A stretch of DNA of 60,574 nt, filler included, from Dimargaris cristalligena (taxonomy: Eukaryota): assembly GCA_003614675.1 (NCBI GenBank). It is 6 parts of 6 records of this genome, joined end to end, with 100 filler letters (N's around TTAATTAATTAA, not from the genome) between each part and the next. Parts side by side here need not be neighbours in the genome. Positions count along the whole stretch, not along the records: positions 30,389 to 40,396 come from ML003212.1; 5 more parts are not named here. One strand, given 5' to 3'. Shown in pieces: positions 25,743-59,370 of the stretch. The notes beneath the pieces were generated by a model that was not told the origin of the DNA, did not search any database, and saw only the letters and a program-made list of their open reading frames with translations. Position numbers and translations under genes: made by a program. Every line of letters starts with the position of its first letter. Positions within the stretch are counted from its first letter, which is position 1.

Positions 25743-28700
25743 ATGGGTGAATCCCCCACCCAATTCGACCGGGGCCGTCTTGACGACCTTAACAAAAAAA
25801 TCGAGGCAATCCTATGCTCGTCTACCGATATCCCCGAAGCGAGCGCCTATGCAAAGGCTCTGCCCGGCCTGACCGAACAATTCTGTCAGCTCGGTATCCA
25901 CTATTTCCTCGAAGGGGAGCCGTCCAAATTGCCCTGCTGGTGGTGCAATCGGACCCTGTCCCCGTTTCTTACCAAACTGCTCTATCTGTTCCAGTTTGGC
26001 AATTCGCCCATACCGGAGATCAACAAGTTTCAGCGCATCATGGGCGACCAGCTCGGCCAATGCGTCGACTGTATTAACGAGTATATCAAAGCCAAGGCCC
26101 TTTTCCGAAGTCAATGCTTAGGCTGGTATGGCCAGGCCGGCGTAGACGCATTGTTCCAGCGGATCTTCTACTGGGACTTGGCCCGCGTTTGGCGGGCGGC
26201 CTACCAAGAGTGCGAGCGGCTTGGTCTACTGCCCGCCACCTTCCCGGTCACCTTAGTACCCCCGGTGAATTACCAGCCCAAGAACGGTCTACCATTCGGG
26301 GGAATGCCAAACGAGCCAACTCTCAACGTCAGCCTGTCCGTTGCCGAACCGCCCGAGCGAACCGAATACGAGAATGACAGCAGCTCGCCCTCCCAACGCA
26401 TTCAACTGCAAACCCTTTGTGTTATCTGCGAAGTTCTGGCTAATCCGGCGTACCTACGCCATACCTCCCTCCACGCTCTTTTTTCGCTGCTTCTTCGCCA
26501 CACCTTGGATCTTGTATCGCTACAGATTGGGAATAAGCTGTTGCCCGGGTTTTTGATCCTAATGTTCCACCCTTGGGCCTCCATCCGAGGCTGGACCCAT
26601 ACCGCTATTAAGAATCTCGACGAACCCGTTGCCGATCCCGACGACTGGTCATTCATTCGGCCACTTTTCAAGTTGATCACTGACCAGATCCTGGCTGACT
26701 ATACCCGCCTCTACCCGAAACTCAAGACCCTCGCAAAAACCGACTTCGATAAGGCTAACCCAGCGTTCGACCCCTTGGTAAACGGCGTGAAAATCCTCAA
26801 TACGCTCATCCCCCGGATTACTTCGGGAATCATCAATCCGTTTATACTTTCCGAGTACCCTACACTGCCGTATTACATTGCCTCGCTGATCCCCCTAGCC
26901 ACGCGCAACCTACTGCTCGAGGCCCTGCAGCTCTTTGCTCATCTCCTGTCGGCCTTTCCTGAGAAGTTTTGGGACCATGCTCTTATCAACGAAAACTCCG
27001 GACTTCCACTGAAAGCATTCGGCCTACAAGATTTTAACCCCGCCAAGTCATTGGGCCATTTGCTCAACCACAATTATTTGGAGATGTCAATGCGTGACAA
27101 TAACTTCCAATCCGAATCCACTTTGGCGGCTGATGCGTCAGAGGGTTTCTCCAATAAATTTCATCGGGCTAGCCGCCGTCTCCGACCAATCATTGATTGG
27201 ATGATCCCCTTCGCTCTTTCGGTAGTCTCGCGGTCTAAGGATGCCGAAATAGTTTGGTCGCGTCTATTCGATAAAACCAGTAGCTGGGCAACTCAATTGT
27301 ACACCTACCCGGAGGAAAACTGTTTGGTCGCTGGCCATGTATTCGCCCAACTGCTGGTGCACTACTACCGCACAGCCCAACACCAATTCGTCAATCACAA
27401 GAATTCCAACCCATCGTCCGACCCGGAAGTTGAGGCACCTACTGAACCAACCAACTCCCCACCCTCCAACCTCGTATTGCCCTGGATCGTCTCCCATGGT
27501 ACGCAGGTTGTGGATGCGCTGGCCCACATCTCCAAATTCCCGCTTACCCGGGGTACAGCTAGCGACTGCCTTGGGCTTATCCTGAGGCGGGACATTAATT
27601 TTTTTCACCAGTTTGTGGATGAAGCGATCGAGCTCCGGCGGGCTATCGCGACTTTCCCGCCCGACCACGTCACTGAGGAGCTCTCGAAGAATAGCGTGGC
27701 ATTTCAAACCCTGTTCCCGGCTCTCTACTCCCCCCTCGATAAGACCCTGGCCAAGACCATCTGGATAGCCGGTTTACAGGGTACCCTACCAACCGAACTC
27801 CAGGTTGAACTTTTGGTTAACTGTGCTGAGGTACTGTGGTGCGATCACTCATCTCTATTAGAGCAAACCGTTGCAGCTTGGCAGGTCGTCCCTAATAATG
27901 GTCCGTTGATCACCCCAATGGCTCATATGCAGGCCCTCCAACAGTTCCTCGATGGAATTTGTCCATTACTTACCGATATGCTACGTCGCATGACCCGAGA
28001 AACCCCCGTCAACCCGACGGCTATCATCAAGGTCGAGCCCGGACTATCCGCCTCCACCACCCTTCCCGAATTTCGCTCTGAGATCATGCCAGAAGTACGG
28101 GCGGTGTTAACCAACCGTGGTATTATGGCGATGCTGCAGCTCATGTTTCTCGGATCGGAAAAATTGCGTTTGACCATTTACCAATGGATCCGGGCCCATA
28201 TCAAGTACGACCAAAAGCTCAATCGAGTCCTGAGTGTCATTCCCCTGCCCTGGGCCGGCGCGCAGCCCGTGGCCCTCCTAGTGGCCTACTCCCCCGAAGA
28301 CAGTATCGTGTGTTTGGGAGAAATCATTGATACCTATCGACAGGGTGCGTTGCGGGATTTTAGTCTGTGTCGCATTACAGCCGATCTCCATCGGATTCTG
28401 GTCACGGGGCTTACCACATTTAAGCTGCTCATCAACATGACTTCCAGTGGGCCACCCGATGCTTTACCTTTACTTTCCGATAAAAGTCGGGGGTTCAAGG
28501 ATGCGGTGAGTATGGCCCGTGTCCAAGCCAGTTTACCGGGCCTCTGGTTACGTATGATGGATTTTGTCAACGTTGCTATTCACCAGGGTTTCCGCTGGGA
28601 TAGCTCCAATCCCCGGGAAGTTGTGGTTAAAGTAATGTCCGGGGTATTCGAATGCTGTCGAGTGATGCTTACCATGTTCCCCCACGGGTTCTATCCCCTG

Positions 28701-30288
28701 GCAGTGCAGCTGGCCACCACTGACTTGCATACTCATATTATGGAGCAGCTGGAAAGTGAGCTGCAACAAACGACGGAGTGGCTCAATGTGACCGACACCA
28801 AGTTACGGGATGCTGCCCTGGGTTTGATATTTGTTACCATCGATTTCCCCCTCCAGTTGGGTGCTTACATTAGTAGCCCCGCTGGCCAGCGAGCTTTAGC
28901 ATTGGTACCCAAAGACCTGGATCAGAATTCCTTGCTTCGCTCGGCCAGCGATGTCATCGATATTTACCGCTATGAACTTAAGCTGATGACTAAGCTTCTG
29001 CACATAGCTCGCTCCGAGAGGGGCCAGACCTCGCTTTTGGCCGAATACCAAAAGAGCGAACTGGAGGTCAAGGTCAATGACTTCTTGCAGGCCATGAACT
29101 ATCCCCTCACTTCCGATCTCCGGCCTCGGAAGTCCTTGGATGGGTCGCTGTTACCAGTGACGGAATCCGAACCGGCTGACCCGGTGGGAGCCTTGGCTGA
29201 CCTAGAACAAGTTGATGCCAGCCATGGTAACATCGATGTTAGCGAAAGTGATGATTCTGATGATTCAGTTACAGAGCTACCCACGTTCATACCCGCGGTT
29301 ATGCCCACTATCGAAACGATTTCTATCTCCGACGATGAATGCTCAGATACCGAACAGGATCAACGTGCATCGGTCTCCAACGAAATTTCCAAGCCCGTTT
29401 TGGCTGTTTCCACCCCCAGGACCGATACCAGCAACGACCGCCCGGGCCCGCACGTCTTTGGCGACCTTGCCTATGTTTGTATTTCCAATTCCCCGCCTCC
29501 CGCTCGAGCCTGTCTACCGCCTGCCTCAAGGAGGCCCCAGCCCACGTTATCCATTTCCGCCTCCAAAAATGATATTGCTCGTTTTATGGACCTGGATGCG
29601 AATGAGTCAGGTACTGCCCAGTCTAATAACTTATTCGACGACGCATTTGACGATATTGACGATGATGAACTCATGAGTTTTTGTGAAGAACTTGACCCAC
29701 CTTCCATTCCTTCCCATTCCGTCACCCCGGCCCCGGCCTCGACCACCCTGAAGGATTTCCGCGCCGAGTCGCTGCTGACTCCTTTGACGCCGGATTCCCC
29801 GCCGTCGACCATTCATCCCAGCCGGTTCCAGAAGCGGACTCTTATCGTGGAGACTCCACCCGAGGAGGACAGCAAGTTTGATCTCTCACCCACTCGCCCC
29901 TCGCTGTTGAGCCGCTCTCGCCCGGTGATGCGAAGTTTAACTCAGGAGGCTGCGCCAGCATTTACCCTTGCGCCGCGTCCTAATCCACCTCAGTCCTTGG
30001 GCAATTTGGATGACGTCTATCATGTCTACCTTACCCCCTCAGCCAAGGGCAAGTCTGCGCCAAAGGCCTTCAACCCTGGTCGTTCCTCTGGGGTCACGGG
30101 ATCTTTAATATCGGATACCCGATTCCCTACGCCTATATTTGGTCAATCCAAGTTGACTGGGCCCAACTTCAATAGAGCCAGGCAGGAACAAGCCACCTTT
30201 AAAGTACCCTCTAGCCAACCCCCGTCTATCTTTACCGGGCCCTCCGCTACCGTAATGACCCGCCCCCCAGAGCAAGTCAGGGCCGTCA
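25743..30288 (+). CDS. SEN1: Probable Sen1/senataxin helicase, N-terminal part only (3' end cut by the contig end)
   Basis: ORF of >1500 codons open into the gap. CWWC...LLYLF...QLGQCVDCINEY...WDLARV and LLPGFLILMFHPWASIRGW resemble the fungal SEN1_N domain, followed by a long disordered linker. No helicase motifs fall within the contig. Confidence 0.62.
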
Positions 30289-30388
30289 NNNNNNNNNNNN
30301 NNNNNNNNNNNNNNNNNNNNNNNNNNNNNNNNTTAATTAATTAANNNNNNNNNNNNNNNNNNNNNNNNNNNNNNNNNNNNNNNNNNNN
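30289..30388. other. Artificial contig linker
   Basis: 44 N + TTAATTAATTAA + 44 N. Confidence 0.98.
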
Positions 30389-31512: not shown

Positions 31513-34395
31513 TTAGGCCCGGGCCTGGTAACCACCCCGGCGGTTAGAGTCGAAAGACCGACCTCCGCCCATAGGGTTGCCACCACCACTTTGGTTCCGG
31601 CGACCCTGCTGTTGGTCACCACGGTTCGAACGGTTGCCGTATCCGGTACGGGACTGGCCATCCTGGTTGTTATTGTTCGACTGACGGCCCTGGTGACCAG
31701 ACCGCTGGTAACCCCCGCGTCCGCCCCGACCGCCGCCCCGTCCACCACGCTGGTCGCCGCGGTGTTTACCGTCCCGGCCACCCTTGCCTCCGGCGGATTC
31801 ATCCTCCTCGTCATTCTCGTCCTTGTTCTGGGAGGTGACCTTTTGGTCAAACAGTTTTTCGTTACTCTCGACCAGGTTCACCACCTTGTCGGCGAACGAC
31901 AGGGACAGCTGTTGGACCTTGCTGGGGTCGATCTTGTGGAAGATGATCAGCTCACCAACCCGGTCCAAGGAGGCTACCAGCTCTTCGTGCCAGATCAGCT
32001 TGGAGATGATGCGGTAGACGGAGCTCAGTTCGAGACTGAACATGGCCGCCAGAGTGGGCAGGGCCATGGTGTCGTAGAAGGGAGCGTAGGTGAACAGATA
32101 GGTGCGCAGACCCTCTTCCTTGATACGGTCGGTGAGCATAGCCTTGATCTGGTCACTGCCGGTGGACATCAAGTCCCAGATACGGATGTCCCGGATCAGT
32201 TGGTCACACTTGGCCCAGTCACCCACCGCCAGGGCACGGGAGGCGCTCAGAATATGGTCGCGGGTATTCTCCGGGGGACCGGTGAAGATCTGGCGTTCGT
32301 GGAAGTCCAACAGGCGCAGGAAGACCCGGGAGATGATGTGCTTACGGGCGTTGGGGTCGTTGGTACCGCCGGCCTGGGCCATGGCGGGAATTTCCAGCAA
32401 CATGCAGCTGGTCAAGTAGACGCACTCCAACATTTCCAAGTTAATGTGCATGTGGAAGGGCAATTGACGCTGACGCTCCAGCAGCTCCTGTTCGGGATTC
32501 AGGACGCCGTTGCGGGGGTTGTGCACGCCCTGGGCCAGCAGTTCCTTCTGGCGACCGGTGGCAAAAATGTCCTGGAGGGCCGAGTGGCACTCACGGACGA
32601 ATCCCTGACGGAAGGCGCACAGACCGAGCTGAACCAAGGCCCGGTTGTAGAGCACCTGGGTTTCGATATCGAAGCCCATGATGTTTTCCTGCAAATGGGA
32701 CATGAGCATCATGTCACGGGCCGCGTGGAATCGGTCGTGCAGGGCGTGGTTGTAAATGTGGCAAATGATACCACGGGTGCGCAGCAGGGGCTCGCCGTGA
32801 CGGTACAGGTAGGCGCAGAGCTGGTGGACCAGTAGAGAGGGTTCGGCGGCCTGGTTGTAGTCGATAATCTCGGAGTGCAGACGGTTGGGGTAGGACTCCC
32901 GGAGACGGGCCTCGAGGGTAGCAATCACCTGATCGGGCTTATAGTAGAGGTGCTCAATCCGGCGCATAACGGCGCGACCGGTGCTCTCCTTCATCTGACG
33001 GGACTCAAAGTAGTTTTGGGCGCGGGCAATCAGCGAGTACAGGGCACTCTGGTTGCGCAGGCGACGCAGGTAATCGGTGGTGTGGGGGTCGAGTGCCTGC
33101 AGGGACTTGGTGTATTCGTCGTCCAGACGGTCCACAAAGGAGATGATAGAGCCCAGAACCTCGTTGCGGACCTTGGGGTCCTCAGACATAGGGTCGCTTT
33201 CGGCGCGCTCGTGAACCTTCACCTCGGGGGCGGCCTCGAGGGTATCCAAAATGCGGTTCAGGTCACCCAGGGCCAGGTTCCATACATCGAAGCGCAGGTA
33301 ACCACCGGAGATGGCCTGTTGGTCGAAACGCACGGAGACCGACAGAAGCAGGATGCGAACAATGTCGGAGGGCTCGGTGGCCACGTTGAGGAGCCGCTGG
33401 ATAGTCTTGAGCTGGCTGTGACGGTTGATACCACGCTTACCCCGGGATTCTAGGATGGTCTGGAGGGCAGCGGGAATATCACGAGCGGTGAGGGTGGAGG
33501 GCAGGGCGCCGGCCTTGGCCTTGGGGGCGGCCTTAGGAGTAGGCTCAACCTTGGGGGTCTCGACGGGTTTGGTCTTCTTGGCCTTCTTAGCCGGGGCCGG
33601 GGCGGGGGCAGCGGCGGCGGCCTTGGGCTTGTCCTTTTTCAGCCAGCGATTGATACCGGCGGCGGGGCGATCGTCGTCGGAGTCGGAGGATGACTCGTCC
33701 GAATCGGAGGGCCACGAGTCCGAGTCGGAACCACTGCCAGCCGGGGCGGGCTTGGGAGCAGCGGCGGCCTTGGGCTTCGTAGTAGCCACAGGGACCACTT
33801 GTTCTTCCTCTTCCGAATCGGCTTCGGAACCCTCGTCACTCCCGCTGTCGGCCGACAGAACGGGGTTGGCACGATAGGCGGAGATGGCCTCTTCGTAGTC
33901 CTTGTTGATCTTACGGGACTTTTGCTTCATAGCGTTCAGGGCCTTGGCGTGCAGACCGTTGGACATCTTCTGCTTCTTAGCGGTGATCTCTTTGATGGCA
34001 TCGTCGATAGCCACCAGACCACGGATATAGAAGCGCGGGGGCTGTCCGTTGGTCAGGAAGGTAGATCCAAACTTGGGGATCAGTTTGACGATGCTGTCGA
34101 ACTCGGAGTTGACGAGGGCCCAGTCGTTGCCTTTGAGGGCCTGGGTGATTTTGTTGATGTGGGAGCGGAGCTGGTCAAAGCGCTTGTCCTTGGCGGACCG
34201 GACGACACGCTTGACGTCCTCCTCGCTCTCGGAGTCGGAGGAGTAGGCACCACGGGCAAAGCGGGTGTTGGCGACCGGGGCCTCGGCGGGGCGGCGGGTG
34301 CTGATGACGGGCTGCTCATCCTCGCTATTGTACGAGGAATCGGATGAACTTGAGGACGACTCACTGTCGCTATCACCGCGGAAAAAGCGCGACAT
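31513..34395 (-). CDS. NIP1: Translation initiation factor eIF3 subunit c, 960 aa
   Basis: MSRFF start, KRVVRSAKDKRFD, QLPFHMHINLEMLECVY, FTGPPENTRDHI, PCI domain and RGG-rich tail. Confidence 0.97.
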   Translation of the reverse strand: MSRFFRGDSDSESSSSSSDSSYNSEDEQPVISTRRPAEAPVANTRFARGAYSSDSESEEDVKRVVRSAKDKRFDQLRSHINKITQALKGNDWALVNSEFDSIVKLIPKFGSTFLTNGQPPRFYIRGLVAIDDAIKEITAKKQKMSNGLHAKALNAMKQKSRKINKDYEEAISAYRANPVLSADSGSDEGSEADSEEEEQVVPVATTKPKAAAAPKPAPAGSGSDSDSWPSDSDESSSDSDDDRPAAGINRWLKKDKPKAAAAAPAPAPAKKAKKTKPVETPKVEPTPKAAPKAKAGALPSTLTARDIPAALQTILESRGKRGINRHSQLKTIQRLLNVATEPSDIVRILLLSVSVRFDQQAISGGYLRFDVWNLALGDLNRILDTLEAAPEVKVHERAESDPMSEDPKVRNEVLGSIISFVDRLDDEYTKSLQALDPHTTDYLRRLRNQSALYSLIARAQNYFESRQMKESTGRAVMRRIEHLYYKPDQVIATLEARLRESYPNRLHSEIIDYNQAAEPSLLVHQLCAYLYRHGEPLLRTRGIICHIYNHALHDRFHAARDMMLMSHLQENIMGFDIETQVLYNRALVQLGLCAFRQGFVRECHSALQDIFATGRQKELLAQGVHNPRNGVLNPEQELLERQRQLPFHMHINLEMLECVYLTSCMLLEIPAMAQAGGTNDPNARKHIISRVFLRLLDFHERQIFTGPPENTRDHILSASRALAVGDWAKCDQLIRDIRIWDLMSTGSDQIKAMLTDRIKEEGLRTYLFTYAPFYDTMALPTLAAMFSLELSSVYRIISKLIWHEELVASLDRVGELIIFHKIDPSKVQQLSLSFADKVVNLVESNEKLFDQKVTSQNKDENDEEDESAGGKGGRDGKHRGDQRGGRGGGRGGRGGYQRSGHQGRQSNNNNQDGQSRTGYGNRSNRGDQQQGRRNQSGGGNPMGGGRSFDSNRRGGYQARA

Positions 34396-35040
34396 GGCTG
34401 TGAAGTGGGTAGGTAGGTACCGAAAGAGACGGAGCTGAGATGAAGGTTCACAGATAAGGACCGACTATAGCGAATAACAGGTAGTCAGATGGGCGGGATC
34501 AAGGCTAAACGGAAGAGGGATCGAGCTGGATCACCTGGTTTGGCCAAATAGCGGGATGGGGTGGGGAGTGAGAAAGTCGAGTAACGGACAAAGCCAAAGA
34601 GATCGGGAAAGGGGGAACAGTGGGATACTCCGAGTCCAGCTGATCGGTGGCTGTGGAGGTAAAGGGGGTTGGAGGAAGCCCAGGGAACTGAACCGTCAGA
34701 TGAGTGAGGCCTGTGGTGGAGACCTCTCGCATTTTTTCAGTGGTGTAGTATAGGCCTTGTACCTACCATCCACCGCAAAAATCTCCTTGGCTAAAGCAAC
34801 GGACCATGGAGGAATAGGTATCACGTGATGTTGGGAACCCCAGGCCCCAACTCCGCCGTACTTTCCAATGGGTATAGAAAAGGAGGTAGAGGGTTGGTTG
34901 GTTTTACTGAGAGGAGGAGGAGGCAGTCCAATGGGCAGCTTAAAGGCCAGTAGTGATGCCGGGTCAGCGTGAGGAATATGGAATGCCTTATATTCAACGA
35001 GGAACAACCTGCAACGTAACAAGCCCACTACTTAGCACAT

Positions 35041-35176: not shown

Positions 35177-35704
35177 ACATTAAAGAGTGCTTAATGTGAA
35201 CTGACACCCGCATATCTCACTAATGGCGGCAGCTGACCACGGCCCATCCAGTTAATGGGCTGTGTAGGTAAGGAATGCTGATTAGCAGCGAGATTCAATA
35301 ATATTATACCCGGCTGGCTTAGCAGCACGGCCAAACCCAGTCTGCTTTCGCGTAGTTGTACTAAATGCCACCTAGGGGATTATATGCGCATAGAGGGACT
35401 GCCCGGGGGGTTGATGTACCGAGCTTCCTGATATTGCAATTGCCTTGTTTCGAGTATTAGGGAAATGCGAATAGACGCATTCCTTTATTTGCTCTCTCTT
35501 TTTTACTAGAGTATATAGTAAGATAGATAGTTGGGTGTAAAGGTTGTTTCTTCTCTTGGTGACGCGGATGAATTAGTCTGGGGGGTTTCGATTGGTCCTT
35601 TGCAGGACTTGCAAACACCAGACAGAGCCGGCTAGTTGGTCTCTTGTCGCCGTTATCTGGGCGATGTGCTAATGATAAGACTAATATACTCTCATCTGCA
35701 GTAG

Positions 35705-35712
35705 TGAGTCAT
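35705..35712. promoter_or_regulatory. Gcn4/CpcA-type binding site (TGAGTCAT) upstream of CPA2, with a TATA-like TATATAA near 35864
   Basis: Match to the TGA(C/G)TCA general amino-acid-control consensus upstream of an arginine biosynthesis gene. The motif is short, so a chance match is possible. Confidence 0.5.
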
Positions 35713-36050
35713 TATTGGGTAGCACTAAGGCAATCCCACTGACTGCCCTAGCCAATTAATGGCCGTCACTGTACACACCTATTTTTTTTTTCAATTCGGC
35801 TCAACAGGAGAAGAGGCTGTTCCTCTCACTAACTCATGCTAACCCTCTCCCACCCCACACGGGTATATAACTCAGGCCCAGATCGGCCCCCTTCGGCTCC
35901 TCCCCCTCCATACCATTCCATTCCATATCCTCTGCTTTCGCTGGCTCTCCTGTGCCCATTTAACCGCCCTCTACCACTGCCTCCTTTTAGCGTGACTATG
36001 ATCTAACCTTTCCTAGATCATCCTAACTTGCGCCCTTTTATATATTATAA

Positions 36051-36134
36051 ATGCTCGCGGTGTACGTCCACGCCCAAGAGAAAAATTCCTCCGACTATCT
36101 GCCCGACCAGATCTGGAAAACCTCCGGGCTCTAA
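36051..36134 (+). CDS. Upstream ORF encoding an arginine attenuator peptide (AAP)-like peptide, MLAVYVHAQEKNSSDYLPDQIWKTSGL
   Basis: 27 codons, ATG to TAA, ending 370 nt before the CPA2 ATG. DYLPDQIWKTS aligns without gaps to S. cerevisiae AAP DYISDHIWKTS and N. crassa DYLSDHLWRA. Confidence 0.85.
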   Translation: MLAVYVHAQEKNSSDYLPDQIWKTSGL

Positions 36135-36504
36135 GTTCATCTTCGATCTCGTCCGCTCCGTTGCTCTCTTCGTTTGTCCGTTTTCTCTTTAAGTATATTC
36201 CCCCTCCTTCGAGTACCTGACTACTGAAGCAGGTCGTATTGTTTTAACCAGCCGTCTTTACCTATCACCGCAATCTTCTTCGGACGATTCCCCGTTTCGT
36301 TCACTCACGTGACTTATAACTCAACACTTCCTTTTCTTTACCTCGGCTTTTTTACCCGGTGGTGAACAGTCACAGCGAATCCTTCCTTCCCCTTTTTTTC
36401 GCTGCTCTCGGTTTAATAGTAGTGGCTGTAGTGTCTCATCGCTTTCTAGCGCTACTACTCCTTCCCCGCATTCCTTCCTTCCGTGCGCTTTATCGTCTGC
36501 CCAC

Positions 36505-39500
36505 ATGTTGCGCCATACTCTTTCCGCCTCGCTTAACTCCCAGCTTGCCTGGAAGGCCGCTCGCACCACCTCGGTGCGTCGCCTAGGCACCTCCCGTATC
36601 TCGAACTCCACTGTCGCCTCCGCCGTCCGCATGGTCAATGGTCGGGGCTACGCCTATCAGTCCAGCCGCCTCGTCCCCGCCGCTCTGCACTTCCCGGCCC
36701 TTGGTGCCCGTGGCTTGCACACCAGCCAGGCCCGGACCGCTGCCGTAGTGTCCGAGGAAATCCTCGCTTCCGTTCCCAAGGTCGATGTCAAGAAGGTGCT
36801 AGTGGTCGGGTCCGGTGGTTTGTCCATTGGCCAGGCCGGTGAGTTCGACTACTCGGGTTCCCAGGCCATCAAGGCCCTGCGCGAATCCGGCGTCAAGACC
36901 ATCCTCATCAACCCCAACATCGCCACCATCCAGACCTCGCAGGCTCTGGCCGATCAGGTCTACTTCCTGCCCGTTACCCCTGAATACCTTACCTACGTGC
37001 TGGAGAAGGAGCGTCCCGATGGTGTCCTACTTACTTTCGGTGGCCAAACCGCCCTTAATTGCGGTATCAAGCTGGACGAGATGGGTGTGCTCGACCGCCT
37101 GGGTATCAAGGTGCTCGGTACCCCCATCAAGACCCTAATTACCAGTGAGGATCGTGACTTGTTCGCCCAGGCCCTGAAGGAAATTGATATTCCCGTGGCC
37201 CAGTCCGTCGCCGTATCGACCGTCCAGGATGCCCTCAATGCCGCCGCTGAGATCAGCTACCCGGTTATTATCCGTTCCGCCTTTTCCTTGGGCGGTCTGG
37301 GTTCCGGTTTCGCTTCCGACCCCGAAGAATTGCGTAACCTGGCCACCAAGTCCCTGTCCCTGTCCCCTCAGATCCTGGTCGAAAAGTCCATGAAGGGCTG
37401 GAAGGAAGTCGAATACGAAGTAGTGCGCGATGCCGCTAACAACTGTATTACCGTGTGTAACATGGAAAACTTCGATCCTCTGGGTATCCATACCGGTGAC
37501 TCCATTGTCGTTGCCCCTTCCCAAACCCTCAGCGACGACGAATACCATATGCTGCGTACGGCCGCCATCAAGATCATCCGTCACTTGGGTGTGGTGGGTG
37601 AATGTAACGTGCAGTACGCCCTCAACCCCTACAGTATGGAGTACATGGTCATTGAAGTCAACGCCCGTCTGAGCCGTAGTTCCGCCCTGGCCTCCAAGGC
37701 GACCGGCTACCCTTTGGCCTTTGTGGCCGCCAAGATTGCCCTGGGCCATACCCTACCCGAACTCCGCAACGCCGTCACCAAGACAACGACCGCCTGTTTT
37801 GAGCCTTCCTTGGACTACATTGTTACCAAGGTGCCCCGTTGGGATCTGAGCAAGTTCAACCACGTGAGTCGCGACATTGGCAGCAGTATGAAGAGCGTGG
37901 GTGAGGTAATGGCTATTGGTCGCACCTTTGAAGAGAGTCTGCAGAAGGCTCTGCGCCAGGTCGACCCCGCCTTCGACGGCTTCCAGTCCCTACCTATCGA
38001 AGGGGATTTGGATGCCTTCATCAGCAACCCCACGGACCGTCGCCTGTTTGGCATTGGTACCGCCATGCTTGACCGCCAATACACCGTGGACCAGGTGCAC
38101 GAGCTCACCAAGGTTGACAAGTGGTTCCTGTATAAGCTGGACAACATTCGCCAGATTCGCCAGGAGATTGCCCACGGCCAACTGGCATCCATCACCCCCG
38201 AGCTTATGAAGCGGGCCAAGCAGGCCGGTTTCGCCGATATCCAGATTGCCAAACTCACCAACGTGACCGAAGACGATGTGCGCGAATTGCGCCAACGTCA
38301 GGATGTCCACCCCTGGGTCAAGCGTATTGACACCCTGGCCGCCGAGTTTCCGGCCCACACCAACTACCTGTACACCACCTATAACGCCAGCTCCCACGAT
38401 GTGGATTTCACCGACCGTGGTACGATGGTGTTGGGTTCCGGTGTCTACCGTATTGGCTCGTCGGTCGAGTTCGATTGGTGTGGCGTGAGCTGCATCCGTG
38501 CTTTGCGTGCCTTGGGTAAGAAGACCGTCATGGTCAACTACAACCCCGAGACCGTGTCCACCGATTTTGACGAATGCGATCGCCTCTACTTCGAGGAACT
38601 GTCTTATGAGCGGGTGAAGGACATTTACGAACTGGAACAGGCCCAGGGCGCCGTAGTGTCGGTAGGTGGGCAACTGCCCCAGAACATCGCCCTCCGTCTG
38701 CACGAGAACGAGGTCAATATCCTGGGTACCTCGCCCGTCATGATTGACCAGGCCGAGAACCGGTACAAGTTCTCCCAGATTCTGGACAATATTGGTGTGG
38801 ACCAGCCCGAATGGAAGGAACTCACCAGTTCGCACGAGGCCCGGGAATTCGCCGAGCGGGTGGGTTACCCCGTGCTGGTGCGTCCCTCGTACGTGCTGTC
38901 CGGTGCCGCCATGAACATCGCCTACGATCCCGAAATGCTCGATCGATACCTGTCGCTGGCCGCCAATGTGTCGCCCCTCCACCCCGTCGTGATCACCAAA
39001 TTCATCATGGCTGCCCAGGAAATTGACATTGATGCCGTGGCCCATCAGGGCCGCGTGCTGTGCCACGCCGTGTCCGAACATGTCGAGAACGCCGGCGTGC
39101 ACTCCGGTGATGCCACTCTGGTGTTGCCCAGTCGGGACCTGGATGAGGCCACCCTGGCCCAGCTCAAGGTGATCACCGAAAAGGTCGCCCACGCCTTTGA
39201 GATTACCGGCCCTTACAATATGCAAATCATCAAGCAGACCGGTCCTAAAGGTGAACTCATCCTCAAGGTCATCGAGTGCAACCTGCGGGCCTCGCGTTCC
39301 TTCCCCTTCGTGTCCAAGGTGCTGGGTCTCAACTTCATTGACGTGGCCACCCGGGCCCTCTGCAACACCGGTGTCCCGGCCCCGGTGGACCTCATGGCCA
39401 AGTCCTACAACTACCAGGCCATCAAGGTCCCTCAGTTCTCGTGGACCCGTCTGGGCGGCGCTGACCCGTTCCTGGGGGTCGAAATGGCCTCCACTGGTGA

Positions 39501-40065
39501 GGTTGCTTGCTTCGGCAAGAACAAGCAGGAAGCCTACATGGCCGCCCTCCAATCCACCACCGGTTTCCAGCTCCCCACTCAAGGTGTCCTCATGGGCATC
39601 GACCATTTGACCGACCCTGCTGATGCCGCCTACGTGGCCGACATTCTGCACACCCAACTCGGCTATCCCATCTTCGTTGACAATGCCCAAACCGCCCAGA
39701 CCATCCAAGGGGCCAGCCAGACCGGCGTCCAGTGCAAGGTGATTGATTTCCCCTACACCGACAAGCGCCTGCTCTTCCAAGCGGTGAAGGACAACGGTAT
39801 CGACATGGTGATCAACTTGGCCAAGACCCGCCCCAACAGTACTACCGACGCCAACTACCTGATGCGCCGTAATGCCGTGGATTTCGGTATCCCATTGGTC
39901 AACGATGCCCAATGCGCCCGGTTGTTTGCGGAATCTTTGGCCCAGTACAAACAGGAACGTAAGGCGTTGGCTGAATTAAAGGCCAAGGCCACTGACGCGA
40001 CGGCGGCCCATGCCGTCATTCCTGCTGAAGTGCGGGGTTGGGACGAATACGTCAAATTGGATTAA
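36505..40065 (+). CDS. CPA2: Arginine-specific carbamoyl-phosphate synthetase large chain, mitochondrial precursor, 1186 aa
   Basis: [43 protein letters not shown] and [15 protein letters not shown], with two ATP-grasp halves plus an MGS-like domain. Arg/Ser-rich presequence. No glutaminase, DHOase or ATCase domains, so it is not URA2/CAD. Confidence 0.96.
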
Positions 40066-40333
40066 TAGAATTTTCGATCAGCCTAGAAATTGTACGGGAC
40101 CTATACTATATTTTTCTGATCTTCTCTCCCCTCTCTCTCCCATAGCAACACGTGATGATAAATGTGTTAAATATGTGGCGTTGTTAATAAATTACTTGAA
40201 ATATTTAAAGCTTGGCTCAATTTATGTAGTAGGTTGATTTTCATATTGAGTGATCTGTATGTGCTCGTGTATCGGTACAATTCAAGTCAATTTGGAGATG
40301 AATTTTTGATTATATTCTAGGCGAGAATTATAT

Positions 40334-40396: not shown

Positions 40397-40496
40397 NNNN
40401 NNNNNNNNNNNNNNNNNNNNNNNNNNNNNNNNNNNNNNNNTTAATTAATTAANNNNNNNNNNNNNNNNNNNNNNNNNNNNNNNNNNNNNNNNNNNN
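40397..40496. other. Artificial contig linker
   Basis: 44 N + TTAATTAATTAA + 44 N. Confidence 0.98.
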
Positions 40497-41985
40497 GGAC
40501 GCCGAGGCGAATGAGAAGCTCAAGAAGATGGTGAATGACCAACAACAGGCCAGCAGGAAGTAGAGTCGAGTACGCTCCGTGGGGCCACCGCTGAACCGCT
40601 TGGCTGGAATGCTCTTGAGTGACTGGAGGAGGTTGGCCTTGATACCCGGAGGGGGTTCGAACATTAGGACACGGGACATGCGGAGCAGATTGACAGGAAC
40701 GCTGGGGTTGGTTTCCATGGTGAGGAAAAGGCGGAAGTTGCGGTTCGGTTTCAGGCTATGCAGCTTCTTTTCCAATTTACTGAGCCAGTTGGACGCCAGG
40801 TGCACATTCTTAAGCAGTACCCAGGTACCGGTCTTGACGGCCGTGGCAATGGCCTGGTCGGCCAGGGTGAATCCTTCGATGGATCCCATGGCTACAGACA
40901 GACACACTGTGCCGGTTTCCTGGGCCAGGTTCTCCACTAAGTTACTAGCATCATGCCCGGGAACGGCACACAGGGCCACAGGGGTACCGGCCCGCACCTC
41001 CTGTTGGACGATGCGGCGCAGGTCAATGTCGGCGTTGTTCACCAAGTCCGCATCAAAGAGCTGCTCAACCAGCCGAGTGGCGGCGGGTAAGATGCGGTCG
41101 GGTCGCAGGCATTTGACCAGAATCAGGCGACGGAAGGCGTCCGTAACAGATCCAGTCCGCTCACCAGCCGCGGGCGATGGGAAACACGGGGGCACTTGAG
41201 TCTCGCCGTTGGGTGCCTGCAGGAACTGCTCCCAAACCTCGGGTTGTTCGCGTACATTGTCAGTCAGGCCGTTGAACACGGGTAGAGTGAGAAGCTGGCG
41301 GAATTGGCCGACTCCTTCTTCATCCAAGTGCTGGCGCACAGCCTCGGGCAGGTTCTCAGGTTTAAATTGAGCGGCAGCTTGGTACGCTGAGCCGGCACGG
41401 CCCATAAGCGCGGCCACATCACCACCCGCCAGGAGGAATTCGTATTCCTTGTCATCCGGGGCACCGCAGTCGTTGGCATCGGCCAGGGCACGCCACTTGA
41501 TCTGACTCAGGAGCATCAAGAGGGTTAGGTGGTCCTGGTGTAGTAGAGTGGAGGAGGCCCGCTGGTAGGCCACATTAAACAAGTCCCGGTTGAGAATCTC
41601 CAACCGAGCAAGGGGGTCGGTTACACTGCGTAGATTGGGGTTCTGTTCCGACAGAATGGTGTTGAAAATTTCGTAGAAGAAATCGAGCGAGAACTGGTAA
41701 AAGTGGTGAACCAAGCTCAGTTGTTCCAGGGTGAAGAAAATGGCACTACAAGCCTGGGCCAGTGGAGTGTAAGTACCCAGGACATGTTCAATCTCCTGCA
41801 TGACCACGTCTGTCTCCTCCACCTTGCGAGACACTTCGGCCGCCTCTCGTTTCAGAGTCTCCAGGGTACTGATGACATTATCGTCGTCCAGAATGTTACC
41901 CTTCGATGTGCTAAGCGCTTGCAGCAGGGACTTCTCGAGGTGGCGCAGACGCAGGCGGAATTCGCCTTGCAGTTTGACCAGGTCA
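40497..41985 (-). repeat. Inverted duplicate of 46218-47706 (dynein fragment)
   Basis: Reverse complement of 46218-47706. The translated ORFs are identical. Confidence 0.95.
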
Positions 41986-44900
41986 CTGCCCAACGGTGAA
42001 CGTCTGGGCCTGCCCCCCAACGTGCGTATTATGTTTGAAGTGGAAACACTACGGTACGCCACCCTGGCTACCGTTAGTCGCTGTGGTATGGTCTGGTTTA
42101 GTGAAGAAGTTGTCACGCTTGAAATGACCTGCCAACACTACTTGCAAACCCTCCGCCAACAGCCCCTGGAGGATGTCGACGAGGGTATTTCGGCTACACG
42201 TCGATCGGCGGCCGCCCAAACCGCAACTGATCCGGATGATGCCGCCCAGTCCCCTATTTTGGTCACCCAGCAGACCTGCGCCGCTTGCCTAGCCCCCTTC
42301 TTCGAACCGGGTAATCTGGTGGGTAAGGCTCTGGACTACTCCCGCGAGCAAATCCGCCATATTATGGACTTTACGCCCACTCGCGCGCTGCATACCCTGT
42401 TTTCCTTGCTTAACAAGTCTATTCGTAATACTTTGGAGTACAACACCCAACATTCGGACTTCCCCCTGTCCCCTGATCAGACTGAGAGCTACATGACCAA
42501 ACGTCTTGTTTACGGTATCATTTGGAGTTTCGCCGGTGATGCCTCGCTGGACATGCGGGTCCAACTATCCGAATTCCTGCAGGGTATTACGACGGTCGAA
42601 CTGCCCCCTCTAGGGAATGGACTATCCATCATTGACTACGACGTTCAGCTCCAGAGTGGTGATTGGCTGCCGTGGCAGTCCAAGGTCCCGGTGATTGAAA
42701 TCGAAACCCACAAGGTGTCCGAGGCTGACGTGATCATTCCCACTGTCGACACGATCCGCCATGAGGATGTCCTGTACTCCTGGTTGTCCGAGCACAAGCC
42801 CCTCATTCTATGCGGTCCGCCCGGTTCGGGTAAGACCATGACTCTGTTCAGTGCCCTGCGTAAACTGCCCGACCTTGAGGTGGTTGGTCTCAATTTCTCG
42901 AGTGCCACTACCCCCGAACTGATCATGAAGACCTTTGAGCAGTACTGCGAGTACCGTAAGACGCCCAACGGAGTTATTCTATCCCCGCAGCTGATCGGCC
43001 GCTGGCTGGTCGTGTTCTGCGACGAAATCAATTTACCCGCCACCGACAAGTACGGCACCCAGCGGGTTATCTCGTTCCTCCGCGAGCTCATTGAATGCGG
43101 TGGGTACTGGCGGGCGTCAGATAAGCAATGGGTCAAGTTAGAGCGGATCCAGTTCGTGGGTGCGTGTAACCCGCCCACCGATCCCGGCCGAGTGCCCATG
43201 TCCCACCGGTTCTTGCGCCACGCCCCCCTGGTCATGGTCGACTACCCCGGTGAGATTTCGCTCAACCAAATTTACGGAACGTTCGCCCGTGCCATGCTCA
43301 AGGTGGTCCCCACGCTGCGGGCCTATGCCGAACCGCTTACCGCCGCCATGGTCGACCTTTACCTGGTCTCCCAGCGCCGGTTTACCCCCGATATCCAGGC
43401 CCATTATATTTACTCCCCGCGTGAGTTGACCCGCTGGATGCGCGGTATCTACGAGGCCATCAAACCCCTGGATGCTTTGCCCGTAGAGGGTCTGGTCCGC
43501 ATTTGGGCCCATGAGGCTCTCCGCCTCTTCCAGGATCGTTTGGTCGATGAATCCGAACGCCGTTGGACTGACGAGCAAATCGACCAACTCGCTCTTAAAC
43601 ATTTCCCAACGATTGACCCCCAGGAAAGTCTACGCCGCCCCATTCTCTTCTCCAATTGGTTGTCGAAGCACTACATTCCCGTGGAGCGCGAAGAACTGCG
43701 CGATTACGCCAAGGCCAGACTCAAGGTTTTCTACGAAGAAGAGCTGGATGTACCTTTGGTGCTGTTCAACGATGTCCTGGACCATGTTCTCCGTATCGAT
43801 CGGGTGTTCCGCCAGATGCAGGGACATTTATTGTTGATTGGTGTGAGTGGAAGCGGTAAAACTACCTTGTCCCGCTTCGTGGCCTGGATGAACGGCCTGA
43901 CGGTGTTCCAGATTAAGGTCCATAACAAGTACTCAGGTGACGATTTCGATGAGGACCTGCGTATCGTGCTACGGCGGACGGGCTGTAAGGGTGAGAAGAT
44001 ATGTTTCATCATGGATGAGTCCAACGTGCTTGACTCCGGGTTCTTGGAACGCATGAATACGCTGCTGGCCAACGCTGAAGTACCCGGTCTGTTTGAAGGC
44101 GACGAGTATTCCTCTCTCATGACTCAGTGTAAGGAAGGCGCCCAGCGCGAGGGTCTGATGCTGGACTCGGGTGAGGAACTGTACAAGTGGTTCACCCAAC
44201 AGGTCATGAAGAATCTTCACGTGGTGTTCACCATGAACCCTCCCGAAGGTGGCCTAGCCTCCCGCGCCGCCACCTCCCCCGCCCTGTTCAATCGTTGTGT
44301 CCTGGATTGGTTCGGTGATTGGTCGGACCAGGCCTTCTTCCAGGTGGGTAAAGAATTCACCCATACCCTTGACCTGGATCTCCCCAACTACGCCGCCCCT
44401 TCCGATTTCCCCCGCGTCTACCGCGATTTGGAGCTCCCGGCCCACCATCGGGATGCGATTATCAATGCCTTCGTCTATGTGCACATGTCGTTGTACGAAG
44501 TGAACGCCAAACTGAGCAAGCGCCAGGGTCGCCACAACTATGTGACCCCCCGCCACTACTTGGACTTTATCAACCACTATGTACGTTTGTTCAGTGAGAA
44601 GCGCGAAGAGCTCGAAGAGCAGCAGCGCCATCTTAACGTCGGTTTGGACAAGCTACACGACACTGTCAATAAGGTAGAGGAGCTCCGCCGTGGTTTGGCC
44701 CAAAAGAAGAATGAGCTCGCTGCCAAGGACGCCGAGGCGAATGAGAAGCTCAAGAAGATGGTGAATGACCAACAACAGGCCGAGCAAAAGAAGGTTTCCT
44801 CCATGCAGTACCAGCGCAAACTGGAGGAACAGAACCGGGTCATTGAGGAGCGCCGTCGACTCGTGATGCAGGATCTACAAAACGTGCAACCCGCGGTGGA

Positions 44901-58674: not shown

Positions 58675-59370
58675 ATGAAGGCCATGCTTATGATTACTTT
58701 GGCTAGTCTGGCCGTCATTGCTGCCCAACCCATGGAGGCGCCTAATAAGTGTGGACCCCCAGCTGCCTCCAGCACCACCTCTATCACCACCACTTCCGCC
58801 ACCAATACCTTTACTGCTACCACCACCTCTACCGTATCCACCCCATCCAATAGCCCAAGCACTACCGGTTTTATCAGTTCGACCACACCCAGTACCACTA
58901 GTTACACTAGCTCCACCACGTCAAGTACCACTATCAAACCTAGCTCGACTACATCTTCCGCCTCCCCTACAGCCACCGTGATAATCAATAGCCCTGGTAA
59001 TAAAGTCGACCAAAGCCTTTGCCTCCAAAACGTCAACCAGTTCCGTTCCCAGAAGGGTCAAGGTGCCCTCCGCTACGACTCCCGCCTAGAGCAACTTGCC
59101 ACCTACCATTCGACTTTCATGTTTACGACCATGAACTTCACGACATGGAATGCCAATGGCACCCTGGGCGAGCGCCTCGACAAAATGGGGGTACAGCATG
59201 GTTACGCGGATGTGGATATCGGTATTGGGTTCAGCAATGCCACTGAAGCCGTCGATGCATGGACGACGTCCAGCCGACATGTGGCCAAGTTCATCGACGC
59301 GACTATAAATGCGATGGCCTGCGCCTATGTGGATGACTGGTGGACGGTCAATGTAGCCGCCATTAACTAG
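58675..59370 (+). CDS. Secreted CAP/SCP (PR-1-like) protein with Ser/Thr-rich stalk, 231 aa
   Basis: Signal peptide, S/T-rich region, then VNQFRSQKGQGALRYDSRLEQLATYHS...AVDAWTTSSRH...WWT, matching the CAP fold pattern. Confidence 0.85.
   Translation: MKAMLMITLASLAVIAAQPMEAPNKCGPPAASSTTSITTTSATNTFTATTTSTVSTPSNSPSTTGFISSTTPSTTSYTSSTTSSTTIKPSSTTSSASPTATVIINSPGNKVDQSLCLQNVNQFRSQKGQGALRYDSRLEQLATYHSTFMFTTMNFTTWNANGTLGERLDKMGVQHGYADVDIGIGFSNATEAVDAWTTSSRHVAKFIDATINAMACAYVDDWWTVNVAAIN

What the first reader, a model, noticed from the sequence alone, without database searches (positions are those of the whole stretch)
36051..36134. Arginine attenuator peptide-like uORF on the LARGE subunit (CPA2) of arginine-specific CPS
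Seen: a 27-codon uORF, too short for the ORF track, encodes MLAVYVHAQEKNSSDYLPDQIWKTSGL* and ends 370 nt before the CPA2 start. Its ATG has a weak context (T at -3). Established: the AAP (S. cerevisiae CPA1 uORF MFSLSNSQYTCQDYISDHIWKTSSH; N. crassa arg-2 uORF MNGRPSVFTSQDYLSDHLWRALNA) stalls ribosomes in high arginine, needs its conserved Asp and Trp, and is known upstream of the SMALL glutaminase subunit gene. Here the D-Y-x-x-D-x-x-W core, the 7-residue D-to-W spacing and exactly 5 residues from W to the stop are all preserved, but the downstream gene is the synthetase large chain. Inference: arginine-sensing ribosome stalling controls the large subunit in this lineage, by relocation, by duplication onto both genes, or by retention from an ancestral or fused CPS arrangement. 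I do not know of this placement being described, but I cannot search the literature.
Basis: partly seen in the sequence, partly recalled or inferred. Interest (0 to 1): 0.92.

Follow-up and report, generated by a model that had tools for sequence, protein, structure and literature searches.

The report
Arginine-sensor-like uORF before CPS large subunit

Summary
The window at 36051-36134 (+) encodes MLAVYVHAQEKNSSDYLPDQIWKTSGL*. It ends 370 nt before an intronless 1186-aa CPS large-chain ORF (36505-40065). That ORF's nearest named relatives are Dimargaritales cpa2 proteins.

The peptide's only Pfam hit is PF08252, the arg-2/CPA1 leader peptide. It scores E 0.0046 and 16.8 bits, just under the 18.5 cut-off. 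True AAPs recovered here score 49-59 bits, so this is a divergent AAP-like peptide. It has Pro and Gln where 39/40 and 40/40 environmental AAP-like loci have Ser and His. It keeps both Asp, Tyr, Trp, Lys and the Asp-to-stop spacing.

A metagenome scan gave 30 AAP uORFs before small-subunit genes. It also gave 5 (plus 3 truncated) Pfam-passing AAP uORFs about 55 nt before CPA2 genes of Dothideomycete-like fungi, and these are under purifying selection. So the sensor does occur on large-subunit genes.

Not shown: that the uORF lies in the CPA2 mRNA, that it is conserved in relatives, or that it responds to arginine. No genome was held and no RNA run was listed. No searchable paper describes this placement, but the key specialist papers were not held.

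Verdict: probable new variant of a known mechanism. Interest 0.6.

The parts
36051..36134 (+). 27-codon AAP-like uORF including its TAA stop; peptide MLAVYVHAQEKNSSDYLPDQIWKTSGL
   Evidence: Translation. Only Pfam hit is PF08252 Leader_CPA1: E 0.0046, 16.8 bits, cut-off 18.5, residues 13-25 aligned to profile positions 10-22 of 23. Top of 3,486 short frames against an HMM of environmental AAPs.
36093..36119 (+). Core motif D15-Y-L-P-D-Q-I-W-K23. Asp15 lies 13 residues before the stop.
   Evidence: Single pattern match in the window. 39 of 40 environmental AAP-like loci have the same spacing of 5 residues between W and the stop. Pro18 and Gln20 differ from Ser (39/40) and His (40/40) in those loci.
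36048..36054 (+). uORF start in weak context (taaATGc, T at -3), preceded directly by an in-frame TAA
36135..36504 (+). 370-nt pyrimidine-rich spacer with no ATG; presumed 5' leader between the uORF and the main start. It may hold an intron (not tested).
   Evidence: No ATG against 3.2 expected. C+T-rich on the + strand from about 35750 to 36500. Environmental AAP loci have spacers of about 38-107 nt.
36505..40065 (+). CPA2/arg-3-type arginine-specific CPS large chain, 1186 aa, uninterrupted ORF. The first ~82 residues are basic, Ser/Ala-rich and free of acidic residues (presequence-like).
   Evidence: Pfam CPSase_L_D1/D2/D3, no GATase. Best named hits are cpa2 of Tieghemiomyces parasiticus 81%, Dimargaris verticillata 83% and Dispira simplex 82%. 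N-terminal alignment.
35864..35870 (+). TATATAA element, a candidate TATA box. If used, it would place the transcription start upstream of the uORF.
   Evidence: Sequence. Function inferred, not tested.
36036..36050 (+). Second A/T-rich TATA-like stretch (ttttatatattataa) abutting the uORF ATG. If this is the working TATA box, transcription could start inside or after the uORF.
   Evidence: Sequence. This feature counts against the reading; not tested.
35998..36006 (+). Two-codon mini-ORF ATGATCTAA. It would be a first uORF only if transcription starts upstream of it.
31513..34395 (-). Divergently oriented upstream neighbour, eIF3 subunit c. It bounds the 2.1-kb intergenic region.
   Evidence: Pfam eIF-3c_N, E 7.7e-179. 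G+A-rich on the + strand at 34400-34900, which mirrors the C+T-rich CPA2 side.

Best explanation
The uORF is a divergent member, or close functional analogue, of the fungal arginine attenuator peptide, placed in the 5' leader of the CPA2 (large-subunit) mRNA of a Dimargaritales fungus.

Proposed mechanism:
- At low arginine, most scanning ribosomes pass the weak uORF AUG, or terminate and resume scanning, and so reach the CPA2 AUG 370 nt downstream.
- At high arginine, a ribosome that has made the peptide stalls with the uORF stop codon in its A site. The peptide's Asp-Tyr-Leu...Trp segment is held in the exit tunnel.
- The stalled ribosome blocks following scanning ribosomes and probably exposes the mRNA to nonsense-mediated decay. 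Large-subunit synthesis, and with it arginine-pathway carbamoyl phosphate, falls.

Shown here: the sequence, its position and strand, its family resemblance, and the existence elsewhere of AAP uORFs on CPA2 genes.

Inferred: that the uORF is transcribed and translated, that it stalls ribosomes, and that the response is specific to arginine.
For: Family resemblance:
1. The only Pfam hit of the peptide is the arg-2/CPA1 leader peptide (E 0.0046). The frame ranks first of 3,486 short frames of the window against an HMM of environmental CPA1-linked AAPs (E 0.0017).
2. It keeps both Asp, Tyr, Leu/Ile, Trp and Lys, and the 13-residue distance from the first Asp to the stop. That distance is found in 39 of 40 AAP-like environmental loci. 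The equivalent Asp-12 of the N. crassa AAP is required for arginine-dependent stalling and contacts uL4 at the tunnel constriction (PMC7038982, passages).

Position in the leader:
3. The uORF is on the sense strand, 370 nt upstream of a verified CPA2 start, inside a C+T-rich tract. No further ATG lies before the main start. Its start context is weak, as the leaky-scanning model requires (PMC11550727, passages).

Precedent for the placement (scan, filter):
4. Of 45 pattern hits in short frames, 30 lie before small-subunit genes. 5 lie about 55 nt before CPS large-chain genes (L017, L018, L053, L087, L110). 3 truncated loci share the same uORF and the same main start (L005, L021, L059).
5. The second-exon frames of L017 and L018 score 29.5 and 30.6 bits against PF08252, above the cut-off.
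6. Six Peltaster-like CPA2-linked copies encode an identical spliced peptide. They show 0 nonsynonymous and 0-3 synonymous codon differences, while the intron is 68-94% identical and the spacer 72-94% identical.
Against: 1. The Pfam score is below the gathering cut-off (16.8 against 18.5). It is far below true AAPs at 48.8-58.8 bits, and about half the 29.5-30.6 bits that the core alone scores in the CPA2-linked Dothideomycete copies.
2. Pro18 and Gln20 replace Ser (39/40) and His (40/40; the search pattern also allowed Gln) of the recovered AAP-like loci. Nothing N-terminal to residue 13 matches the profile.
3. The spacer to the main AUG is 370 nt, against about 38-107 nt in the environmental loci.
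4. A TATA-like stretch abuts the uORF AUG (36036-36050). The transcription start could therefore lie downstream of it.
5. There is no comparative evidence from this lineage. No genome was held, and none of the 120 fetched metagenome stretches resembles this variant. The one DYLPDQ hit, L088, is a chance match inside a bacterial histidine kinase gene.
6. The environmental set is dominated by Ascomycota. It does not show what early-diverging AAPs tolerate at the Ser and His positions.
Confidence: 0.55

Rival explanations
1. The uORF descends from an AAP and is translated, but the peptide no longer senses arginine, or never did. It acts as an ordinary constitutive uORF that lowers CPA2 translation or promotes decay whatever the arginine level.
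For: The score is below the cut-off and the core is divergent, with Pro for Ser and Gln for His at positions nearly invariant in 40 AAP-like loci. The N-terminal half has no profile match. The unusually long 370-nt spacer would favour reinitiation.
Against: The residues kept (both Asp, Tyr, Trp, Lys) and the exact Asp-to-stop spacing are what a tunnel-acting arrest peptide needs. A uORF acting only by its presence would have no reason to keep them. Which substitutions abolish function is not known from anything I could read.
Confidence: 0.2
2. The ORF is not part of the mature CPA2 mRNA, because transcription starts downstream of it or it is spliced out. It is then an inert relic of a former leader, or belongs to another transcript.
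For: A TATA-like stretch lies directly before the uORF ATG. The distance to the main ATG is 3.5 times the longest seen in environmental loci. No expression data could be obtained.
Against: An intact ATG-to-stop frame with the family motif and spacing is unlikely to persist without selection. A consensus TATATAA lies 181 nt upstream of the ATG. The C+T-rich tract typical of the sense strand of this leader already begins near 35750. The 370 nt after the uORF are free of ATG, as expected of a scanned leader.
Confidence: 0.12
3. The resemblance is a chance match in an intergenic region.
For: The peptide is short, and 6 of 100 shuffles of the window gave one match to the loose DNA motif somewhere. 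The Pfam score is under the cut-off.
Against: The single match falls on the sense strand within 500 nt of the one gene in 60 kb whose partner gene is the known AAP target. It lies in an ATG-started frame that stops exactly 5 codons after Trp. By my rough estimate the joint chance is about 1e-5 or less (inference). It is the only Pfam hit of 24,736 models and first of 3,486 frames. Among pattern hits in short frames, 38 of 45 lie beside, or (3 truncated loci) match loci beside, CPS genes.
Confidence: 0.04

Closest known systems
[quoted passage not shown]
   Same: A short uORF on the sense strand ahead of an arginine-specific CPS gene, with a weak start context. It has the core D-Y-[LI]-x-D-x-[LI]-W-K, 13 residues from the first Asp to the stop, and 5 residues after Trp. 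[quoted passage not shown]
   Different: The downstream gene is the large synthetase chain, not the glutamine amidotransferase small chain. The Pfam score is 16.8 bits against 49-59 for true members. Pro and Gln stand in place of Ser and His. The uORF has 27 codons, not 23-25, and its N-terminal half is unrelated. The spacer is 370 nt against about 38-107 nt. There is no intron in the uORF, whereas many Pezizomycotina copies carry one in the first Asp codon.
CPA2-linked AAP uORFs in environmental Dothideomycete-like contigs, found here (L017, L018, L053, L087, L110; truncated L005, L021, L059)
   Same: An AAP-type uORF on the sense strand ahead of a stand-alone CPS large-chain gene that has a presequence-like N-terminus. 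No small-subunit gene lies in the held stretches.
   Different: Those copies are canonical AAPs. They pass the Pfam cut-off on the second exon alone (29.5 and 30.6 bits). They are 24 codons long and split by a phase-1 intron in the Asp codon, and they end about 55 nt before the CPA2 ATG. They come from Ascomycota: the nearest named CPA2 is Peltaster fructicola at 85-92%. Canonical CPA1-linked AAPs occur in the same sample series.
Other eukaryotic nascent-peptide stalling uORFs (hCMV gp48 uORF2, plant AdoMet decarboxylase S-uORF, mammalian AMD1 MAGDIS)
   Same: A uORF-encoded peptide acts inside the ribosome tunnel, in some cases in response to a metabolite, to stall at or near its own stop codon and repress the main ORF (PMC7038982, passages).
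   Different: The sequences, ligands and target genes are unrelated. This is a resemblance of mechanism only.

Membership tests
Arginine attenuator peptide (Pfam PF08252 Leader_CPA1) | Scores at or above the family's curated gathering score | tested here: not met
   16.8 bits against 18.5, E 0.0046. It is the only family hit among 24,736 models. True AAPs from L086, L026 and L012 score 58.8, 54.0 and 48.8 bits.
Arginine attenuator peptide (Pfam PF08252 Leader_CPA1) | Conserved core D-Y-[IL]-S-D-H-[IL]-W-[KR] | tested here: inconclusive
   7 of 9 positions are kept. Pro stands for Ser (Ser in 39/40, Ala in 1/40) and Gln for His (His in 40/40) of the environmental AAP-like loci. The search pattern fixed the other seven positions, so only these two and the spacing are free observations.
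Arginine attenuator peptide (Pfam PF08252 Leader_CPA1) | Fixed distance from the essential Asp to the uORF stop (13 residues; 5 after Trp) | tested here: met
   D15 to the stop is 13 residues, and 5 residues follow W22. 39 of 40 AAP-like loci are the same; L025 has 6 after Trp. The role of Asp-12 comes from PMC7038982 passages.
Arginine attenuator peptide (Pfam PF08252 Leader_CPA1) | Lies in the 5' leader of the mRNA, sense strand, with a start context that allows leaky scanning | tested here: inconclusive
   Strand, position, T at -3 and the ATG-free spacer fit. Presence in the mRNA could not be tested: no RNA run was listed.
Arginine attenuator peptide (Pfam PF08252 Leader_CPA1) | Downstream gene is the small (glutamine amidotransferase) subunit of arginine-specific CPS | tested here: not met
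   The downstream gene is the large chain, and no small-subunit homologue lies in the window. However, 5 environmental loci with Pfam-passing AAP frames also precede large-chain genes. This feature describes the studied cases, not necessarily the whole family.
Arginine attenuator peptide (Pfam PF08252 Leader_CPA1) | [quoted passage not shown] | not testable with these tools
   Needs toeprinting, reporter assays or ribosome profiling.
Arginine-specific CPS large chain (CPA2/arg-3 type) | Stand-alone large chain with duplicated pre-ATP-grasp and ATP-grasp halves and an oligomerisation domain, not fused to GATase, ATCase or DHOase | tested here: met
   CPSase_L_D1 x2, CPSase_L_D2 x2 and CPSase_L_D3, with no GATase or CPSase_sm_chain. 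The best 120 hits are fungal proteins, mostly named cpa2 or arginine-specific large chain.

The most novel reading that the evidence does not exclude
The AAP arginine sensor is a portable module that fungi have placed on the large-subunit gene at least twice: in Dimargaritales (Zoopagomycota) and in Capnodiales-like Dothideomycetes (Ascomycota). In Dimargaritales a divergent Pro/Gln-core peptide is a working arginine-responsive arrest peptide, and possibly the only one on the CPS-A genes. The regulated subunit would then have switched from the amidotransferase to the synthetase, and the sequence space of functional AAPs would be wider than the Dikarya consensus suggests.
Probability: 0.3. Interest if true: 0.75.

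Novelty: new variant of a known kind. Interest (0 to 1): 0.6.

Why it matters
The AAP is a textbook case of a nascent peptide that senses a small molecule from inside the ribosome. The papers I could read describe it only on the small-subunit gene.

A copy on the partner gene shows that the sensor can be moved or duplicated between genes of one enzyme. That bears on how translational metabolite sensing evolves and on which subunit limits enzyme assembly.

The divergent core (Pro and Gln in place of the near-invariant Ser and His) offers a natural test of which residues the arginine response really needs. The Dothideomycete copies found here give a second, canonical and selectively maintained case. 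It can be studied in cultivable relatives with existing genomes.

Tried and rejected
Tools that were unavailable or gave nothing:
- Whole genome of the window: none held. The CPA1 locus and its leader could not be examined.
- RNA evidence: no RNA holder was listed for 35600-40200.
I used Pfam hmmscan instead.
- PDB sequences, NCBIfam and Rfam on 35400-36700: no match.

Literature:
- Eight searches found no paper that places an AAP on the large-subunit gene, and no paper text holding AAP sequence motifs.
- Not held: PMC3003393, PMC7686025, PMC3434499, PMC232343, PMC3568992, PMC384695 and PubMed 16979358. Supplements are closed.
- PMC2373899, PMC5853489 and PMC9866270 (passages) held nothing relevant.

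Metagenome scan:
- 75 of the 120 stretches were not AAP uORFs. Most are a ~470-aa protein family with ELDYLRDQFWK. L102 is AAP-like but cut off by the contig end.
- Of the 45 filtered hits, L023, L062/L115 and L090 are chance matches in other coding frames. L088 (DYLPDQFWK) is inside a bacterial histidine kinase gene and shows no similarity to the window.
- L045 and L106 are AAP-like but have too little downstream sequence to classify.

Other points:
- One search used lengths 'longer', so normal-length CPA2 proteins were not among its candidates. The taxon call for L017 rests on long or fused gene models.
- Possible introns in the 370-nt spacer were looked at by eye only and are not claimed.

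Full report
**What is in the sequence**

The window at 36051-36134 (+) reads ATG...TAA and translates to MLAVYVHAQEKNSSDYLPDQIWKTSGL*. A TAA stands directly before the ATG, so the frame cannot be longer. The start context is ttataaATGc, with T at -3.

The next ATG on this strand is at 36505. It opens an uninterrupted 1186-codon ORF that runs to 40065. Pfam finds in it the duplicated pre-ATP-grasp and ATP-grasp domains and the oligomerisation domain of the CPS large chain, and no amidotransferase domain.

The closest named proteins are cpa2 of Tieghemiomyces parasiticus (81%), Dimargaris verticillata (83%) and Dispira simplex (82%). Other Zoopagomycota, Glomeromycota and Mucoromycota follow. 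The window therefore comes from a Dimargaritales fungus, a group of haustorial mycoparasites (PMC9866270, passages).

The start at 36505 is supported in two ways. The N-terminus MLRH... is shared with the Tieghemiomyces and Dimargaris verticillata proteins. The first ~82 residues are basic, Ser/Ala-rich and free of acidic residues, like a mitochondrial presequence; that reading is an inference.

The upstream neighbour (31513-34395, minus strand) is eIF3 subunit c. The uORF therefore sits in a 2.1-kb divergent intergenic region.

**Is it more than chance?**

- The DNA motif for D-Y-x-x-D-x-x-W occurs once in the 60.5-kb window on both strands. 0.06 matches are expected, and 6 of 100 shuffles gave at least one.
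- Against all 24,736 Pfam models the peptide hits one family only: PF08252 Leader_CPA1, the arg-2/CPA1 leader peptide. E is 0.0046 and the score 16.8 bits. Residues 13-25 align to profile positions 10-22 of 23.
- I built an HMM from 9 distinct AAPs that I recovered from metagenome contigs upstream of small-subunit genes. Among 3,486 short stop-to-stop frames of the window, this frame is first (15.3 bits, E 0.0017). The runner-up scores 8.5 bits, E 0.23.
- The one match lies on the sense strand within 500 nt of the partner gene of the known AAP target, in an ATG-started frame that stops exactly 5 codons after Trp. Taking these together, I put chance at a few per cent at most (inference).

**Reference AAPs obtained with tools**

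No held paper prints AAP sequences, so I scanned the metagenome collection with a back-translated core pattern.

45 of the 120 have the motif in a short frame that stops within 6 codons after Trp. Their downstream genes sort as follows:

| Downstream gene | Loci | Evidence |
|---|---|---|
| CPS small subunit | 30 | tblastn; Pfam CPSase_sm_chain+GATase checked for L086, L026, L012, |
| CPS large chain | 5 (L017, L018, L053, L087, L110) |; Pfam checked for L017 and L018, |
| Unclassified | 10 | |

The 10 unclassified loci break down as follows:
- L005, L021 and L059 share the uORF, its intron and the main-ORF start of L017 and L087, but the contigs end there.
- L045 and L106 are AAP-like with too little downstream sequence.
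- Five are chance matches inside other genes.

That confirms both that recollection and the pattern.

**How typical is the window's peptide?**

True CPA1-linked AAPs score 48.8-58.8 bits against PF08252. The second-exon frames alone of the CPA2-linked copies L017 and L018 score 29.5 and 30.6 bits. The window's peptide scores 16.8 bits, under the 18.5 cut-off.

It keeps both Asp, Tyr, Leu/Ile, Trp and Lys. It also keeps the 13-residue distance from the first Asp to the stop, which 39 of 40 AAP-like loci share. It differs at two positions:
- Pro stands where 39 of 40 have Ser and 1 has Ala.
- Gln stands where 40 of 40 have His, although the pattern also allowed Gln.

Its N-terminal 12 residues match nothing. 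The Asp that aligns with N. crassa Asp-12 is the residue whose change to Asn abolishes arginine-dependent stalling, and it contacts uL4 at the tunnel constriction (PMC7038982, passages).

I therefore call the peptide AAP-like and divergent. I do not file it as a Pfam-level member. The environmental set is almost all Ascomycota, so it does not show what early-diverging fungi tolerate at these two positions.

**Is it in the CPA2 leader?**

This could not be tested directly. No RNA run was listed and no genome is held.

Indirect points in favour:
- The + strand turns C+T-rich from about 35750 to the main ATG. This mirrors a G+A-rich stretch next to the divergent eIF3c gene.
- A consensus TATATAA lies at 35864-35870.
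- The 370 nt between the uORF and the main ATG contain no ATG, against 3.2 expected.

Points against:
- A second TATA-like stretch (36036-36050) abuts the uORF ATG. It could set a start site downstream of it.
- The spacer is 370 nt, against about 38-107 nt in the environmental loci. The spacer may hold an intron; I did not test that.

**AAP uORFs on large-subunit genes exist elsewhere**

In L017, L087, L110 and L053, and in the truncated L005, L021 and L059, the uORF is built as follows:
- An 11-codon first exon ends in ...TSQ.
- A 90-95-nt intron with GTATG...YAG interrupts the first Asp codon in phase 1.
- A second exon reads through DYISDHLWKAQVN to a stop 54-57 nt before the CPA2 ATG.

L018 has the same structure with a different first exon and ...ANVN.

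The six Peltaster-like copies encode an identical spliced peptide. They show 0 nonsynonymous and 0-3 synonymous codon differences, while their introns are 68-94% identical and their spacers 72-94% identical. That is purifying selection on the peptide.

Their CPA2 proteins are closest to Peltaster fructicola at 85-92%. One search covered only long or fused gene models.

CPA1-linked AAPs with the same intron position occur in the same sample series. One of them, L038, is closest to Capnodiales/Mycosphaerellales small subunits at 82-83%. L018 (CPA2) and L022 (CPA1) have nearly the same uORF peptide, but their introns and flanks have diverged.

These data fit an old duplication of the sensor onto both genes in those Dothideomycetes. 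That both copies sit in one genome is not proven.

No small-subunit homologue lies in the window or in the held parts of the CPA2-linked loci.

**Mechanism proposed**

By analogy with the studied AAP (PMC7969011, PMC11550727 and PMC7049704, passages):
- The weak uORF AUG lets many ribosomes scan through to CPA2.
- When arginine is high, ribosomes that made the peptide stall at its stop codon. They block scanning and probably trigger nonsense-mediated decay.

For this window, only the sequence features are shown. Transcription, translation, stalling and arginine specificity are inferred.

My probabilities:

| Reading | Probability |
|---|---|
| Arginine-responsive AAP-type uORF of CPA2 | 0.55 |
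| AAP-derived but arginine-blind uORF | 0.20 |
| Not in the mRNA, or a relic | 0.12 |
| Chance | 0.04 |
| Other | remainder |

**Novelty**

Every paper passage I could read places the AAP on the small (amidotransferase) subunit gene. Eight full-text searches found no paper that puts an AAP on CPA2 or arg-3. Only five papers hold uORF, CPA2 and arginine together; I opened two (passages) and neither was relevant, and the other three I judged from the search listing only.

The specialist papers most likely to mention it were not held: Hood 2007, Spevak 2010 and the Dever/Ivanov/Sachs 2020 review. Supplements are closed. From memory, unverified here, yeast CPA2 and N. crassa arg-3 are not known to carry such a uORF.

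I rate the finding a new variant of a known kind, with that caveat.

- PDB, NCBIfam and Rfam gave nothing.

Noticed in passing
window 40497-50502: The dynein heavy-chain region holds two perfect (100%) inverted repeats: 41931-44781 with 47652-50502 (2851 nt), and 40497-41989 with 46214-47706 (1493 nt). Dynein motor domains therefore appear on both strands (ORFs 40449-41801 minus, 41800-47856 plus, 47640-50402 minus). The perfect identity suggests an assembly artefact (palindromic misjoin) rather than biology.
   Followed up: partly
L017, L018, L053, L087, L110 (also L005, L021, L059): Environmental Dothideomycete-like contigs carry a canonical two-exon AAP uORF about 55 nt upstream of the CPS large-subunit gene. 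The peptide is identical across six diverged copies, with only synonymous codon changes. I found no description of this in the searchable literature.
   Followed up: yes
L004, L013, L022, L025, L030, L034, L038, L045, L049, L058, L060, L083, L106, L108, L119 and the CPA2-linked loci: Many Pezizomycotina-type AAP uORFs are split by an intron at one fixed place, phase 1 in the first Asp codon. The intron's last G mimics the first base of that codon in genomic DNA. The position is the same in CPA1-linked and CPA2-linked copies.
   Followed up: partly
about 60 of the 120 metagenome stretches, e.g. L003, L006, L008, L010, L015: A ~470-aa protein family, apparently prokaryotic, holds a conserved ELDYLRDQFWK(P/T)EW segment that matches the AAP core pattern by coincidence. 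I did not identify the family.
   Followed up: no
window 25743-30344 (+), 4728-5852 (+), 58675-59370 (+): Other genes of the window by Pfam: a SEN1 N-terminal domain protein (1533 aa), a DUF4460 protein and a CAP/cysteine-rich secretory family protein. Long uninterrupted ORFs suggest an intron-poor genome.
   Followed up: no
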